From a virus (taxonomy: Duplodnaviria; Heunggongvirae; Uroviricota; Caudoviricetes), in IMG/VR virus record IMGVR_UViG_3300043418_000226: a stretch of DNA of 64,000 bases; one strand, given 5' to 3'. The stretch's first letter is position 1. Each line of letters starts with the position of its first letter. Under the pieces are notes generated by a model that saw nothing but the letters and a program-made list of their open reading frames with translations, was not told where the DNA came from and did not search any database. Below are positions 30,847 through 33,750 of the stretch, piece by piece. Both the position numbers and the translations under genes were made by a program.

Positions 30847-30919
30847 TGCCCTGTATCGGATTCGAACCGACGCTTTAAGGTTTTAGAGACCTCCGTGCTG
30901 ACCGCTACACTAACGGGAC
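30847..30919 (-). tRNA. tRNA-Sup(CTA): suppressor tRNA, anticodon CUA (reads UAG); Gln-like body
   Basis: hand-folded cloverleaf: acceptor GTCCCGT/ACAGGGC, D-arm GTGTAGCGGTCAGCAC (close to the tRNA-Gln D-arm GTGTAACGGTTAACAC), anticodon stem GAGGT/ACCTT with loop CT-CTA-AA, T-arm GTCGGTTCGAATCCGAT. Confidence 0.7.
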
Positions 30920-31028
30920 AAAATAAATCACTATATGGTGGTCTATCACCTCAACCTTTCACTGATACATTTTATGTGTGCTACACGTGGTTACTAAGTC
31001 AATGTCTCTTTAATAGTGATTTATGTTT

Positions 31029-32918
31029 TTATTTTGTGATAATCTTATCTGTCACTTCATTAATGGTTTCAGTAAGAATTTCTTTAGAGTGATTCTTATC
31101 TCTAACCATGTTTAAAAGTTCAAGACCAAGTAAACCTGATATTGGGTTTGAATTACCATCACCACCTGTAATTAAAATTTCAGGAATAATTTTGATATTG
31201 TTTTTACCAATTTCTTCTGTGATTTTAAATTTAGAGAAGTTATCTGAACCCATTGCATCTACTTGTTTTTGGTACGCATCGGCCGTAGCCTTACCAATAC
31301 TCTCAATCTTAACGGCTTCGGCCTTACCAACCTGTTCGGTTTCATATGCCTTAGCTTCTGCTTTCAATTTAGTTGATTTGGCATCAGCCTCGGCATTAAG
31401 TTGTACAGATTTTGCACGACCTTCAGTTTCCTTAACGGTTGCTTCTGCCTTTCTTTCCGCAATTTGAACCGATTGTTGTGCACTTACGATATCTTTTTGC
31501 ATATTAGCCAAGGCAGTTTCACTCTCTAACTTTTGTTTCACTTTTTGTGCCTCAATTTGAGTTACGAAAGTTTTTTCTTCCTCTTGTGCAATTTTTCTAT
31601 CTGTTAACGTTTTCATCAATTCCGCAGGTGGAACGATATCACCAATTAAGGTATCAACCGCATGTACATTATATTCTTCCAATACTGCTGAGATTTTCTC
31701 TTTAGCCGCGTCTTGTCTCTCTTTACGAGTGGTTAAGAATGCAATTACATCAGAATCCTGAGCCGAGTTACGGAAGTAGTTACCAATTGTAGGTTCTAAA
31801 ACTTGTGAAACCAAATTTAAAACACTACCAAATCGAGCAATTACTTTAGGTGCGTCTGTCGATGGAATATGAATGATTTGAGAAACGTCCAAGTTGAATG
31901 GGAAACCATCCTTAGAACGAACAGTAATCGTATTCAAGTTCTTATCTAAATTATGTGATTCAGTTCTTGCGTTAGCCCAATTCAAAACTAAATTTGTTGT
32001 TGGTACGGTTTGGATTTTAGTTGTGTATGGGTTAATTGGATATTTCCCCGGGTCTAATGGAGTATTCCACACACCTTTCTGACCTTTACTTACAATGTTA
32101 CCATGTTTAAAATTCGAACCCGTAACATCTTTACCGTCCTCACCAACGTAAGAAATTACAATACCAACATTACCAATTGGAATTTCAGTCATTGGAACTT
32201 GTTCAATAGAAACTGCCCATGGGTTTAACGTGTAAGAACCTGCAAGTATAAATTGAGTCTGTAAACCTCTCGAACCTCCATTTTCTAAGAACACATCAAA
32301 ATCTTGGAAGTTATTATGTCCCTCAACTGATTTACCTGCGATTTGATTAGGATCTAATGGGTCACCATCTTGTGCGGTAATTATACCGACTTGACCTTCA
32401 CCAATTGTGGTAATATCCGTTATTGACACTACAAATAATAACGTATTAATTCGATAAGTACCCGTGTTTAGATACTTCGTCTGTTTACCTTTTTGACCAC
32501 CACTATTAAAGAACTTTCTTGTATCTTGAAAGTTGTCACATTCGACACCTCGAGCCAATATACGTCCTGTGGATAATGATGTACCGTCTTTGGCCACTAA
32601 TAAACCGATTTTACCTTGTGGTATAGTAATGAACTCTTGTAAAAGTACATCATATTGCCACGGCCAAAATCCCCAATATAATCCAGGAGGTAATGGGTCC
32701 GCTTGATAACCTGCTTCACCTTCTAAAGCGATAATCCTACCCGCAGGTAATTCTTTTTTCGCTCCAAATAAAACGAATTTCTTCGTAACTAACCCAATTC
32801 TGTTTTCGGGAATAATAATCATACCGAATAACACTCTTAACACCCATTTATAGGCAATTAAAGTAAGAATAACAGGTACAATCCACCAAAAACTAAGTAA
32901 ACTTGATAATGATTCCAT
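31029..32918 (-). CDS. SPFH/band-7 flotillin-like membrane protein (YqiK-like)
   Basis: N-terminal TM segment, SPFH-like core, long Ala/Glu/Lys-rich coiled coil; start moved to MESLSS. Confidence 0.75.
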   Translation of the reverse strand: MESLSSLLSFWWIVPVILTLIAYKWVLRVLFGMIIIPENRIGLVTKKFVLFGAKKELPAGRIIALEGEAGYQADPLPPGLYWGFWPWQYDVLLQEFITIPQGKIGLLVAKDGTSLSTGRILARGVECDNFQDTRKFFNSGGQKGKQTKYLNTGTYRINTLLFVVSITDITTIGEGQVGIITAQDGDPLDPNQIAGKSVEGHNNFQDFDVFLENGGSRGLQTQFILAGSYTLNPWAVSIEQVPMTEIPIGNVGIVISYVGEDGKDVTGSNFKHGNIVSKGQKGVWNTPLDPGKYPINPYTTKIQTVPTTNLVLNWANARTESHNLDKNLNTITVRSKDGFPFNLDVSQIIHIPSTDAPKVIARFGSVLNLVSQVLEPTIGNYFRNSAQDSDVIAFLTTRKERQDAAKEKISAVLEEYNVHAVDTLIGDIVPPAELMKTLTDRKIAQEEEKTFVTQIEAQKVKQKLESETALANMQKDIVSAQQSVQIAERKAEATVKETEGRAKSVQLNAEADAKSTKLKAEAKAYETEQVGKAEAVKIESIGKATADAYQKQVDAMGSDNFSKFKITEEIGKNNIKIIPEILITGGDGNSNPISGLLGLELLNMVRDKNHSKEILTETINEVTDKIITK

Positions 32919-32969
32919 TTTTTTTTGTTTAATTAAAATTATTTTACCGTACAAATGTACGACATATTT

Positions 32970-33308
32970 TTAATTCACCAAATCTTTTTGAATGTTTTTT
33001 TCAAAATCTTCTTTTTTTGTTTTAGTTTTAAATTTATAACCACGAGCAACACGGTCAGAGTGTATTCTTTTTTTATCTCTCTTATCGTATTGATAAGACG
33101 TTAACTCATTAGACGTTTCATTATGTATTTTCAATATCTTATCGAACATCTCTAATTTTTGTTCATCAGTGAAATTATATTTGTCACGATTTTCTTTTCT
33201 CCATCTTTCACGATTTTTAATATCGATGTTAGGTTCTAATATTTTATGAACTGCGTTAGAGAATGTACATTTAATCATTTGTGTTGGGTTATTTGAATAT
33301 TTTTTCAT
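32970..33308 (-). CDS. hypothetical basic protein
   Basis: 112-aa ORF. Confidence 0.5.
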   Translation of the reverse strand: MKKYSNNPTQMIKCTFSNAVHKILEPNIDIKNRERWRKENRDKYNFTDEQKLEMFDKILKIHNETSNELTSYQYDKRDKKRIHSDRVARGYKFKTKTKKEDFEKNIQKDLVN

Positions 33309-33417
33309 TTTGTTTTAATTTTTAATAAAGTTATTTTTTAATGATAAAGTTGATGCCTTTATCGAGCATTTTTGTCTTTATTAAAATTAAGTGGGCCCTC
33401 GTATCTATTTCATGATG

Positions 33418-33750
33418 TTAATCGTTTAGTGATAATTTAAGTTTATTTGTTAATTTTTTTGTTTCGGGAATCTCGAGAAAGCATAAAGATGTCATCTCGT
33501 TCCCAATATCGGGCTCAAGAAAATAAGATACAGATGCTCCTGTGTCTTTAAGTTTTTCTAATAAATGATGTAATGATTGTTCAGAATCGATGGAAAGAGA
33601 AATAAGATAATTATTGTTCCATCTTTTAGCCATGTCAGGATGTTCCAAAAAGAATTGGGAAATTGCGTGTCCTGATTGTGCAATTTGATAACCAGGTTTA
33701 ATGTCTTTTCTGGTAATAACGACAAGTCTATTAATCTAATGTTGTTTCAT
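33418..33750 (-). CDS. peptidyl-tRNA hydrolase, PTH2 family, containing an in-frame TAG (codon 5) that is probably translated
   Basis: minus-strand ATG at 33750-33748, then K, Q, H, TAG (33736-33738), then INRLVVITRKDIKPGYQIAQSGHA, matching the PTH2 core (vvvVRtDLkmgkGKiaAQcsHA) in frame with the tracked 76-aa ORF that starts at TTG. Confidence 0.5.

What the first reader, a model, noticed from the sequence alone, without database searches (positions are those of the whole stretch)
30847..33750. Amber-suppressor tRNA(CUA) plus an in-frame TAG inside a PTH2 peptidyl-tRNA hydrolase gene: candidate TAG stop-codon recoding
The tRNA at 30847-30919 folds as a canonical cloverleaf with anticodon loop CU-CUA-AA, so it reads UAG. 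Its D-arm and overall body closely resemble the tRNA-Gln(UUG) at 34802-34873, which suggests UAG is decoded as Gln. About 3 kb away, the PTH2-like gene has a minus-strand ATG at 33750, then K-Q-H, a TAG at 33736-33738, and then INRLVVITRKDIKPGYQIAQSGHA. That segment is the conserved PTH2 catalytic core and is in frame with the downstream 76-aa ORF. Without readthrough the catalytic motif would be lost. Stop-codon recoding with phage-encoded suppressor tRNAs is documented in crAss-like and Lak-type Bacteroidetes phages. TAG is otherwise rare in this window: it is used as an apparent stop in only about 4 of 90 genes, and each of those is followed within 2-10 codons by TAA or TGA.
Basis: partly seen in the sequence, partly recalled or inferred. 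Interest (0 to 1): 0.9.

Follow-up and report, generated by a model that had tools for sequence, protein, structure and literature searches.

The report
Phage gene gated by amber stop
This large phage carries its own UAG-reading tRNA near a small enzyme gene that has a UAG stop four codons after its start, a pairing conserved in many big phages; the tRNA therefore looks like a key that switches on a few genes, not a rewrite of the whole genetic code.

Summary
A canonical tRNA with anticodon CUA lies at 30846-30919(-). A PTH2-fold gene (33750-33418, -) reads ATG-K-Q-H-TAG-INRLVVITR..., and family homology starts right after the TAG.

The window is not TAG-recoded. This is its only credible gene with an in-frame TAG. 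Code 11 already gives dense coding. Terminase, portal and prohead protease are intact. TAG still ends genes. Nothing supports Gln: the 'Q' in database homologues is TAG translated under code 15 by gene callers.

The feature is a conserved two-part module. In 64 of 71 non-redundant related loci the PTH2-like gene starts ATG, 0-6 codons, TAG, then a purine. These include 200-735 kb phages and cultured mycobacteriophages Bxz1 and Myrna. A tRNA(CUA) lies a median 747 nt downstream in 45 of 56 loci with the TAG and in 0 of 6 without it. Two other neighbouring gene families carry the same MK-TAG-ATT leader; TAA and TGA controls show no such families.

Most likely, UAG suppression by the phage's own tRNA gates translation of a few genes. 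I found no published description. It gives a target for some 'orphan' suppressor tRNAs in standard-code jumbo phages.

The parts
33418..33750 (-). PTH2-fold ('PTH2-like') gene. It has a 4-codon leader (ATG AAA CAA CAT), an in-frame TAG, 105 codons, then TAA.
   Evidence: Sequence. Pfam PTH2 residues 9-79. Family profile against PDB 2zv3 Pth2, E=8.6e-6. AF2 pLDDT 93 and Foldseek TM 0.75-0.81 to Pth2/Bit1. PHROG 1866.
33736..33738 (-). The gating UAG codon (codon 5), followed by ATT A..
   Evidence: Same column is TAG in 64 of 71 non-redundant homologous loci. The next base is always a purine (A 52, G 12). The next codon is ATT in 35 of 64.
33739..33750 (-). Leader: ATG plus three sense codons (M-K-Q-H).
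   Evidence: An in-frame ATG lies 1-7 codons before the TAG in 63 of 64 TAG-bearing loci.
30846..30919 (-). Amber-suppressor tRNA, anticodon CUA (anticodon at 30884-30886), class I. No CCA is encoded.
   Evidence: ARAGORN. Rfam 58.4 bits. In an alignment of 40 homologous-context tRNA(CUA) genes, 18 of 19 pairs show compensatory changes, and U33-C34-U35-A36 is invariant.
33387..33413 (-). Apparent remnant of a second amber-gated gene: ATG AAA TAG ATA CGA GGG CCC ACT TAA, 4 nt after the PTH2-like stop.
   Evidence: Sequence. In 13 related loci an 82-aa gene with leader MK-TAG-I starts 2-28 nt after the PTH2-like stop.
32970..33308 (-). 112-aa ORF of unknown function lying between the gated gene and the tRNA.
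   Evidence: Homologues lie downstream of the PTH2-like gene in 20 of 71 loci. No Pfam, PHROG or NCBIfam match.
31029..32954 (-). SPFH/Band_7 protein (641 aa), a neighbour lying between the gated gene and the tRNA here.
   Evidence: Pfam Band_7 96.7 bits. Same neighbour in L003/L005. A Band 7 gene also lies near tRNA-Sup in XacN1.
33798..34229 (-). SmpB, immediately upstream (context: translation-rescue cluster).
   Evidence: Pfam SmpB 147.7 bits. Same order SmpB then PTH2-like in L003/L004.
27271..27679 (-). Phage tmRNA (context).
   Evidence: ARAGORN. Rfam 72.6 bits.

Best explanation
This is a suppressor-dependent translational gate, not a changed genetic code.

How it works:
- The PTH2-like mRNA starts AUG-AAA-CAA-CAU-UAG-AUU-A... 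Ribosomes that meet release factor 1 at codon 5 release a four-residue peptide and make no enzyme.
- Ribosomes that receive the phage's own tRNA(CUA) read through and make the full 109-residue PTH2-fold protein.
- The inserted residue sits in a non-conserved N-terminal tail, so its identity is irrelevant.
- The gene and its tRNA form a linked module that sits among the phage's tRNAs, SmpB and tmRNA.
- In relatives the same leader (M-K/x-UAG-AUU-A) also gates at least two other neighbouring genes.

Shown: the conserved architecture, the TAG/tRNA(CUA) covariation, the functional tRNA, the PTH2 fold and the absence of general recoding.

Inferred:
- Readthrough actually happens.
- Its purpose is to tie production of these proteins, in time or amount, to the activity of the phage suppressor.
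- My preferred reading is feed-forward coupling of a peptidyl-tRNA-recycling enzyme to suppressor and tRNA activity, or a delay timer.
For: 1. The TAG sits at the same position in 64 of 71 non-redundant homologous loci, down to about 35% protein identity. These include 200-735 kb phages (LR756500, LR756501) and cultured mycobacteriophages Bxz1 and Myrna.
2. The leader stop is TAG in 64 loci and TAA in one (L068), never TGA. Yet TAA is by far the commonest stop in these genomes (1351 TAA, 583 TGA, 231 TAG).
3. The leader ATG is in frame in 63 of 64 loci, 1-7 codons upstream.
4. The first canonical start after the TAG is a median 29 codons downstream. In the window that would delete strand 1, helix 1 and the invariant T-R-x-D...G-x-Q..Q.GH motif.
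5. A tRNA(CUA) is present in 45 of 56 TAG-bearing loci and 0 of 6 TAG-less loci (Fisher p=2e-4). It lies on the same strand, a median 747 nt downstream. A relaxed scan adds three more adjacent candidates.
6. The tRNAs are under selection. 18 of 19 cloverleaf pairs covary and the CUA anticodon is invariant, while the tRNA bodies are very diverse.
7. L060/L065, L074 and LR756501 have a second in-frame TAG inside the conserved domain. Re-initiation cannot explain that.
8. TAG-bearing genes themselves end in TAA or TGA in 64 of 64 loci.
9. A homology-clustered scan for the 'ATG, up to 8 codons, stop, long ORF' pattern finds recurrent families only for TAG (54, 13, 4 and 3 loci). TAA and TGA give at most 2-3. 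The extra families lie right next to the PTH2-like gene.
10. There is no general recoding.
11. The base after the TAG is always a purine, usually within AUU-A. From my own knowledge of E. coli work (Bossi 1983; Miller and Albertini 1983), a 3' purine favours amber suppression.
Against: - There are no expression, proteomic or aminoacylation data. Readthrough is inferred.
- 11 of 56 TAG-bearing loci show no standard tRNA(CUA) within 10 kb.
- In Bxz1 and Myrna the codon after the TAG is GTG with a GAAGG/GGAGG 7 nt upstream. GenBank annotates that GTG as the start, so initiation after the TAG is plausible there.
- AUU after the TAG is conserved in three unrelated families and is a possible weak start codon.
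- TAG still ends about 6-11% of genes in these phages, and they show no excess of close backup stops. Suppression may therefore be weak or tolerated.
- The window's tRNA has a C5-A68 mismatch.
- The purpose of the gate is not established.
- The enzyme has Tyr where canonical Pth2 has the conserved Lys, so its substrate is uncertain.
Confidence: 0.72

Rival explanations
1. Genome-wide TAG-to-Gln recoding (genetic code 15), as in crAss-like and Lak phages. The PTH2-like TAG would be one of many sense TAGs, mostly outside the window.
For: A suppressor tRNA(CUA) is present. TAG is a rare stop (5 of 88). Lak phages carry a homologue of the gene. Gene callers chose code 15 for many short contigs carrying the module. 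Most of this phage's genome was not seen.
Against: Only one credible in-frame TAG occurs in about 88 genes. Coverage is 0.869 under code 11 and 0.897 with TAG as sense, with unchanged gene length; the same holds in 66 related loci, with medians 0.85 and 0.87. Late genes (terminase, portal, prohead protease) are intact under code 11. TAG ends genes. The module also occurs in cluster C mycobacteriophages, whose roughly 230-250 genes are annotated under the standard code. No Gln evidence survives.
Confidence: 0.05
2. Upstream mini-ORF with termination and re-initiation. The 1-7 codon leader is a separate tiny ORF ending at UAG. The ribosome restarts at the adjacent AUU, AUA or GUG. The tRNA(CUA) has another job.
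For: The codon after the TAG is ATT, ATA, ATC or GTG-like in most loci, and ATT is conserved in three families. In Bxz1 and Myrna a GTG with good SD spacing follows the TAG and is the annotated start.
Against: This does not explain why the stop is TAG in 64 of 65 loci when TAA dominates these genomes. It does not explain the strict in-frame ATG or the covariation with tRNA(CUA). Second TAGs inside the domain in three lineages cannot be bypassed by re-initiation. In 11 of 64 loci the next codon is ACA, ACT, AAC, AGA, AGC or GAA, none of them a start codon.
Confidence: 0.15
3. Pseudogene or sequencing error. The TAG is a nonsense mutation in a decaying gene and the tRNA(CUA) is a mutated, functionless tRNA.
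For: A single in-frame stop near the start is what a fresh nonsense mutation looks like. Pfam support for the domain is marginal.
Against: The same stop is at the same place in 64 independent lineages, with strong protein conservation downstream (21 invariant columns) and a confident PTH2 fold. The tRNAs show compensatory evolution.
Confidence: 0.01
4. Pyrrolysine or another non-canonical amino acid is inserted at UAG (ARAGORN labels the gene 'tRNA-Pyl').
For: Only the CUA anticodon, which is why ARAGORN gives the label.
Against: The tRNA is a canonical cloverleaf: 2 nt between the acceptor and D stems, an 8-nt D loop with GG, a 5-bp anticodon stem, a 5-nt variable loop and a TTCGAAT T loop. 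From my own knowledge, tRNA-Pyl lacks these features. Bodies differ widely between phages. No pyl genes were noticed in the proteins annotated, but I ran no dedicated search.
Confidence: 0.01

Closest known systems
Stop-codon-recoded (code 15) phages: crAss-like and Lak phages (Borges et al. preprint 10.1101/2021.08.26.457843; PMC9523058; PMC7886860)
   Same: A phage-encoded tRNA(CUA) decodes in-frame UAG in phage genes. The idea that in-frame stops delay or condition translation of particular genes was proposed there. These are low-GC genomes with few TAG stops.
   Different: There, tens to hundreds of genes, especially late and lysis genes, carry many internal TAGs, and coding density collapses under code 11. 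Here one gene in 64 kb (a few in relatives) carries one TAG at codons 2-8, late genes have none, and TAG still terminates genes. Lak phages have the homologous gene without a leader stop.
Orphan suppressor tRNAs of standard-code jumbo phages, e.g. Xanthomonas phage XacN1 (PMC5852040) and Klebsiella phage phiKp24 (PMC8386662)
   Same: Jumbo phages with the standard code, large tRNA sets and tRNA-Sup genes. For XacN1 the authors state that no target genes could be identified.
   Different: Here a target is identified, lying upstream of the called start and not after a gene's stop. XacN1 itself remains unexplained: its ORF295 is a canonical PTH2 without a TAG, and I found no leader-TAG gene in the 100 kb examined.
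prfB (RF2) autoregulation by an early in-frame stop codon (from my own knowledge)
   Same: A conserved in-frame stop early in a translation-factor gene makes synthesis depend on competition between termination and an alternative decoding event.
   Different: prfB uses +1 frameshifting at UGA and senses its own product. Here a cognate suppressor tRNA reads UAG in frame. No link between the product and RF1 or the tRNA is shown.
Canonical archaeal/eukaryotic peptidyl-tRNA hydrolase Pth2 (PF01981; PDB 2zv3, 1xty, 1q7s). PTH2 was noted in jumbo phages by Iyer et al. (PMC7824862).
   Same: Same fold (TM 0.75-0.81) and same length. The family profile matches 2zv3 over its full length.
   Different: This is a divergent subfamily: Pfam sits just at the cut-off, NCBIfam arch_pth2 gives 20 bits against a cut-off of 82, and it falls in PHROG 1866 'unknown function'. 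Tyr replaces the conserved Lys of 'GK', and E-P-D replaces 'DAG'. Canonical phage PTH2 (XacN1 ORF295) has no leader stop.
Programmed readthrough in viruses (Q-beta A1, retroviral gag-pol; from my own knowledge)
   Same: A fraction of ribosomes decode a stop codon as sense to make a second product.
   Different: Those use host near-cognate tRNAs at the end of a complete ORF to add a C-terminal extension. Here a dedicated cognate tRNA reads a stop at the very start, and without it no functional product is made.

Membership tests
TAG-recoded (genetic code 15) phage | Many genes carry in-frame TAG at sense positions | tested here: not met
   One credible case in about 88 genes of the window. Terminase, portal and prohead protease have 0 internal stops.
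TAG-recoded (genetic code 15) phage | Coding density and ORF length are low under code 11 and recover under code 15 | tested here: not met
   Window coverage is 0.869 under code 11 and 0.897 with TAG as sense; mean gene length is 211 and 209 aa. Medians over the window plus 66 loci are 0.85 and 0.87.
TAG-recoded (genetic code 15) phage | TAG is not used as a terminator | tested here: not met
   5 of 88 window genes and 231 of 2165 genes overall end in TAG.
TAG-recoded (genetic code 15) phage | Phage-encoded suppressor tRNA(CUA) | tested here: met
TAG-recoded (genetic code 15) phage | UAG is decoded as glutamine | tested here: inconclusive
   The tRNA is not specially Gln-like. The 'Q' in databases is a code-15 calling artefact. 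The TAG column is not conserved in TAG-less homologues.
PTH2 peptidyl-tRNA hydrolase (PF01981) | Reaches the Pfam gathering threshold | tested here: met
   23.2 bits against 23.0, only marginal. The family profile against PDB Pth2 2zv3 gives E=8.6e-6 over the full length.
PTH2 peptidyl-tRNA hydrolase (PF01981) | PTH2 alpha/beta fold | tested here: met
   AF2 pLDDT 93.2, pTM 0.86. The top 13 Foldseek PDB hits are all Pth2 or Bit1, with TM 0.68-0.81.
PTH2 peptidyl-tRNA hydrolase (PF01981) | Conserved Lys (GK) and Asp (DAG) of canonical Pth2; that these are catalytic is from my own knowledge | tested here: not met
   The HMM alignment to 2zv3 places Tyr at the Lys position and the invariant Glu of E-P-D at the Asp position.
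PTH2 peptidyl-tRNA hydrolase (PF01981) | Equivalog of archaeal Pth2 (NCBIfam TIGR00283) | tested here: not met
   20.4 bits against a cut-off of 82.
PTH2 peptidyl-tRNA hydrolase (PF01981) | Hydrolyses peptidyl-tRNA | not testable with these tools
   Needs an enzyme assay.
Pyrrolysine decoding system | tRNA-Pyl architecture (short D loop, 3-nt variable loop, 6-bp anticodon stem; from my own knowledge) | tested here: not met
   Canonical cloverleaf with an 8-nt D loop, 5-bp anticodon stem and 5-nt variable loop.
Pyrrolysine decoding system | pylS and pylBCD genes | not tested
   No dedicated search was run. None appeared among the proteins annotated.
Leader-TAG + tRNA(CUA) module (defined here) | ATG, 0-6 sense codons, then TAG followed by a purine, in frame with a PTH2-like domain that ends in TAA or TGA | tested here: met
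   The window has ATG AAA CAA CAT TAG ATT ... TAA.
Leader-TAG + tRNA(CUA) module (defined here) | tRNA(CUA) on the same strand within about 2.5 kb downstream | tested here: met
   The window's tRNA is 2499 nt downstream, the longest spacing seen. The family median is 747 nt.

The most novel reading that the evidence does not exclude
Large tailed phages carry a dedicated, near-orthogonal translational switch. A phage suppressor tRNA(CUA) acts as the key, and a short conserved leader cassette (AUG, 0-6 codons, UAG-AUU-A) acts as the lock on a small regulon. That regulon comprises a divergent PTH2-fold hydrolase, an 82-aa protein and an HD-like protein. This ancient module would explain orphan suppressor tRNAs in standard-code phages. 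It would also be the pre-adaptation from which full TAG recoding (code 15) evolved.
Probability: 0.4. Interest if true: 0.85.

Novelty: new variant of a known kind. Interest (0 to 1): 0.78.

Why it matters
- Suppressor tRNAs are common in jumbo phages that otherwise use the standard code, and their targets have been an explicit open question. [quoted passage not shown] This finding supplies a concrete, conserved target class. Earlier searches missed it because the stop lies upstream of the called start, not at the end of an annotated gene.
- It points to a natural single-codon translational gate built from a cognate suppressor. That is close in logic to engineered amber-suppression switches.
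- It offers a plausible stepping stone to full stop-codon recoding.
- It has a practical consequence. Gene callers truncate these genes, or switch short contigs to code 15 and write a spurious Gln; 24 of the 40 closest database proteins show this. GenBank labels the tRNA 'tRNA-OTHER' in Bxz1 and 'tRNA-Ser' in Myrna.
- The module occurs in cultured mycobacteriophages, so it can be tested directly.

Tried and rejected
1. Gln identity from alignment. All 24 full-length homologues show Q at the TAG column, but the DNA has TAG and the Q comes from code-15 gene calling. Rejected as evidence.
2. Gln identity from tRNA similarity. No isoacceptor is the consistent nearest relative, in the window or in 22 loci.
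3. Backup stops after TAG-ending genes as a sign of active suppression. No difference from TAA/TGA-ending genes.
4. A homology screen for in-frame TAGs using all stop-to-stop ORFs was too noisy, because non-coding frames of homologous DNA align. I replaced it with greedy coverage and the leader scan.
5. XacN1. ORF295 is a canonical PTH2 without a TAG. ORF088, next to tRNA-Sup, is unrelated. There is no leader-TAG candidate above noise. Its suppressor targets remain unknown.
6. An exact 40-mer of the window's tRNA found nothing in viral contigs. No close phage is in INPHARED.
7. A genome-contig scan found no cellular member of the subfamily. The patterns only reach close relatives.
8. Release-factor genes. 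None in the window by GGQ-segment probes recalled from memory.
9. Initiator-like tRNA reading UAG as a start. Rejected by inspecting the sequences: G1-C72 pairs, the anticodon stem lacks three G-C pairs, and an in-frame ATG is conserved upstream.
10. The sigma-70 promoter and terminator scan of 30700-34300 was at or below the shuffle expectation, so I did not use it.

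
Full report
**1. The observation**

ARAGORN finds 26 tRNAs and a tmRNA in the window, all on the minus strand. One tRNA, at 30846-30919, has anticodon CTA, and Rfam scores it 58.4 bits. 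It is a class I cloverleaf with anticodon loop CU-CUA-AA and a single C5-A68 mismatch in the acceptor stem.

The minus strand at 33750 reads ATG AAA CAA CAT TAG ATT AAT AGA CTT GTC GTT ATT ACC AGA... This is in frame with the 76-aa TTG ORF at 33648-33418. No ATG, GTG or TTG lies between the TAG and that TTG.

With the TAG read through, Pfam PTH2 matches residues 9-79. The match therefore starts just after the TAG and well before the TTG. The score is marginal, 23.2 bits against a cut-off of 23.0.

**2. The window as a whole is not recoded**

- GC is 32.7%.
- A greedy code-11 gene call gives 88 genes covering 87% of the window. Stops are TAA 72, TGA 11 and TAG 5. The uncovered stretches are RNA genes.
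- Treating TAG as sense raises coverage only from 0.869 to 0.897. Mean gene length does not change (211 and 209 aa).
- A dedicated scan for 'ATG, up to 8 codons, TAG, long ORF' finds only the PTH2-like gene and one antisense artefact.
- The window contains an intact large terminase.
- A short contig of the same phage continues into an intact T4-type portal, a ribosomal protein S21 gene and a prohead protease. All have zero internal stops.
- No release-factor gene is detectable in the window.
- The TAG-ending genes do have a TAA or TGA a few codons on. That is the AT-rich background. Over related loci the median distance is 10.5 codons after TAG-ending genes and 8 after TAA/TGA-ending genes.

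**3. The TAG is conserved, and the database 'Q' is an artefact**

Forty homologues were found. All 24 full-length ones show Q at the TAG column, and the rest are N-terminally truncated.

DNA of three truncated lineages shows an in-frame TAG at that same column: MKNY\*INKL, MKNY\*IKRL and MT\*INRL.

DNA of two 'Q' proteins also has TAG. The look-up tool reports that the gene does not translate to the stored protein, and the codons read ATG AAA CAA CAT TAG and ATG AAA TAG. So gene callers had used code 15. This removes the only apparent evidence for glutamine.

**4. Family-wide architecture**

Eighty IMG/VR loci were fetched, many on contigs of 100-675 kb. Together with the loci above and the window, they give 71 non-redundant loci. 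Results:

- 64 loci have the leader TAG, 6 do not, and L085 is ambiguous.
- The nearest in-frame ATG is 1 to 7 codons upstream: 2 codons in 30 loci, 3 in 16 and 4 in 12.
- The base after the TAG is A in 52 loci and G in 12, never a pyrimidine.
- The next codon is ATT in 35 loci.
- The gene's own stop is TAA in 43 loci and TGA in 21, never TAG.
- The first canonical start after the TAG is a median 29 codons downstream.
- The consensus around the TAG is ATG-AAR-TAG-ATT-A.
- One TAG-less locus, L068, has TAA at the same place (MKET-TAA-IYNRLYV).
- L060/L065, L074 and the 735-kb phage LR756501 have a second in-frame TAG inside the conserved domain.

An exhaustive profile search finds 905 representative clusters with E below 1e-10. 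Many were called truncated or with 'M-x-x-Q-I', and a minority have ordinary starts. No member was found in 185,579 prokaryotic species genomes, although the scan patterns reach only close relatives.

**5. The tRNA partner**

- A tRNA(CUA) lies on the same strand, a median 747 nt after the gene (range -999 to +2499). The window has the longest spacing.
- It is present in 45 of 56 TAG-bearing loci that have at least 3 kb of downstream sequence. It is present in 0 of 6 TAG-less loci (Fisher p=2e-4).
- Relaxed scanning adds adjacent candidates in L016, L076 and L077.
- Several phages have two different copies.
- The 78 tRNAs comprise 59 unique sequences with very different acceptor stems. No isoacceptor is the consistent nearest relative, and one has a long variable arm.
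- In an alignment of 40, 18 of 19 cloverleaf pairs show compensatory double changes, while U33-C34-U35-A36 is invariant.

These are functional tRNAs whose fixed feature is the amber anticodon. The tRNA diversity, and the TAG's position in a non-conserved N-terminal tail, suggest that the inserted residue does not matter.

**6. More than one gated gene**

I clustered leader-stop candidates by homology across loci. Recurrent families appear only for TAG: 54, 13, 4 and 3 loci. TAA gives at most 2 and TGA at most 3.

- Family 2 is about 82 aa, with leader MK\*I(N/T)(K/E)K and motifs FHFNKKH...GFSTKETPDNPHTKGS. It starts 2-28 nt after the PTH2-like stop in 13 loci and has no Pfam or PHROG match.
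- Family 3 is about 191 aa, with leader ML\*ITKQEL. It has a weak HD domain and falls in PHROG 14850. It lies just downstream in 4 loci.
- The window lacks family 2. It does have ATG AAA TAG ATA CGA GGG CCC ACT TAA 4 nt after the PTH2-like stop (33413-33387), apparently a remnant.

**7. The protein**

- The family profile matches solved M. jannaschii Pth2 (2zv3) over its full length, E=8.6e-6.
- The AlphaFold model (pLDDT 93, pTM 0.86) matches Pth2 and Bit1 structures with TM 0.75-0.81.
- It is nevertheless a divergent subfamily. NCBIfam arch_pth2 scores 20 bits against a cut-off of 82. PHROG 1866 is 'unknown function'. Tyr replaces the conserved Lys, and E-P-D replaces DAG.
- Starting at the TTG would delete strand 1, helix 1 and eight invariant residues.

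**8. Cultured and deposited phages**

tblastn finds the family in the huge phages LR756500-LR756504 and LR745206, in Lak phages and in 207 cluster C mycobacteriophage records.

- Bxz1 reads ...GAAGGC ATG TAG GTG ACA..., with a tRNA(CUA) 300 nt downstream that GenBank annotates 'tRNA-OTHER'.
- Myrna reads ...GGAGGC GTG TAG GTG..., with a tRNA(CUA) that GenBank annotates tRNA-Ser.
- In both, the GTG after the TAG has good SD spacing and is the annotated start. Readthrough is therefore less certain for these two.
- Lak phages, which are known to use code 15, have the gene without a leader stop and a tRNA(UUA) about 600 nt away.

**9. Literature**

- Iyer et al. note PTH2 in jumbo phages without mentioning an in-frame stop (PMC7824862).
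- The Borges et al. preprint does not mention PTH.
- Yoshikawa et al. report two tRNA-Sup(CUA) genes in XacN1 and state that no target could be identified (PMC5852040).
- Other papers treat jumbo-phage suppressor tRNAs as support for alternative codes or as unexplained.
- Seven full-text searches found no description of this module. Delesalle et al. 2016 on mycobacteriophage tRNAs was not available.
- XacN1 itself is not explained by this finding.

**10. Interpretation**

The best-supported mechanism is that the phage's own amber suppressor decodes a UAG placed 1-7 codons after the start. The PTH2-like protein, and two other proteins in relatives, would then be made only when, and in proportion as, that tRNA is active.

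Placing the stop at the very start makes failure cheap, because only a tiny peptide is released. It also makes the inserted residue irrelevant.

What the gate is for is inference. Candidates are a delay timer, coupling of a peptidyl-tRNA-recycling enzyme to suppressor and tRNA activity within the tRNA, SmpB and tmRNA cluster, or a sensor of RF1 competition.

The main rival is re-initiation at the AUU or GUG after a mini-ORF. It fails to explain four things: the TAG specificity, the in-frame ATG, the covariation with tRNA(CUA), and the second internal TAGs.

**11. Verdict**

The feature is a conserved gene-specific amber gate, a new variant of suppressor-based recoding. I could not find it described. 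It gives a target to some orphan suppressor tRNAs of standard-code jumbo phages.

Noticed in passing
window 29671-30059 (-), with 29579-29664 (-): A full-length GOLLD RNA (273 bits against a gathering score of 150) lies directly 5' of an odd 86-nt tRNA-Met-like gene. That gene scores only 34.9 bits in Rfam.
   Followed up: no
window 27271-27679 (-) and 33798-34229 (-): The phage encodes its own tmRNA (tag ATSNVAVV) and its own SmpB. SmpB sits immediately upstream of the gated gene.
   Followed up: partly
window 39200-39272 (-) and 40017-40084 (-): Rfam finds two tRNAs that ARAGORN missed. By eye their anticodon loops read GTC (Asp) and CAT.
   Followed up: no
window 33387-33413 (-): ATG AAA TAG ATA CGA GGG CCC ACT TAA lies 4 nt after the PTH2-like stop. 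It looks like the leader of a deleted second amber-gated gene (family 2 of the relatives).
   Followed up: partly
Database proteins P0001-P0031; loci L089-L093: 24 of the 40 closest database homologues carry Q at the TAG column. In the five contigs checked, for two of these proteins, the DNA has TAG. Gene callers had switched these short contigs to code 15, so the module may cause false code-15 assignments.
   Followed up: yes
L094 4657-4729 (Bxz1); L095 4466-4537 (Myrna): The tRNA(CUA) next to the 'peptidyl tRNA hydrolase' gene of cluster C mycobacteriophages is annotated 'tRNA-OTHER / tRNA-like product' in Bxz1 and tRNA-Ser in Myrna.
   Followed up: partly
L103 7861-8052: A ribosomal protein S21 gene lies between the portal-adjacent gene and the prohead protease, on a contig of the same phage.
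   Followed up: no
L072 8088-8225: A release-factor-like GGQ domain (53% identity to the RF1 GGQ segment) lies about 2 kb upstream of that phage's gated PTH2-like gene.
   Followed up: no
L068 about 9990-10000; L077 11719-11813; L099/L100: Variants of the module. L068 has TAA instead of TAG in the leader and no tRNA detected. L077 has a tRNA(UUA) 1.4 kb downstream. Lak phages have a tRNA(UUA) about 600 nt from a homologue without a leader stop.
   Followed up: partly
L029, L037, L046, L053, L067: about 115 nt upstream of the TAG: In this subgroup a 38-codon in-frame stretch (MQRCLAAL...NYLE..MCL) ending at the TAG is conserved at the amino-acid level. It could be a longer leader peptide or an overlapping RNA gene.
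   Followed up: no
window 31029-32954 (-); L003 11229-13112; L098 31115-32026: A long SPFH/Band_7 protein repeatedly lies beside the suppressor tRNA, including in XacN1 (ORF080, 4 kb from tRNA-Sup).
   Followed up: no
L060/L065 10339-10429: This phage's tRNA(CUA) is 91 nt with a long variable arm (class II-like). It starts 18 nt after the stop of a PTH2-like gene that has two in-frame TAGs.
   Followed up: no
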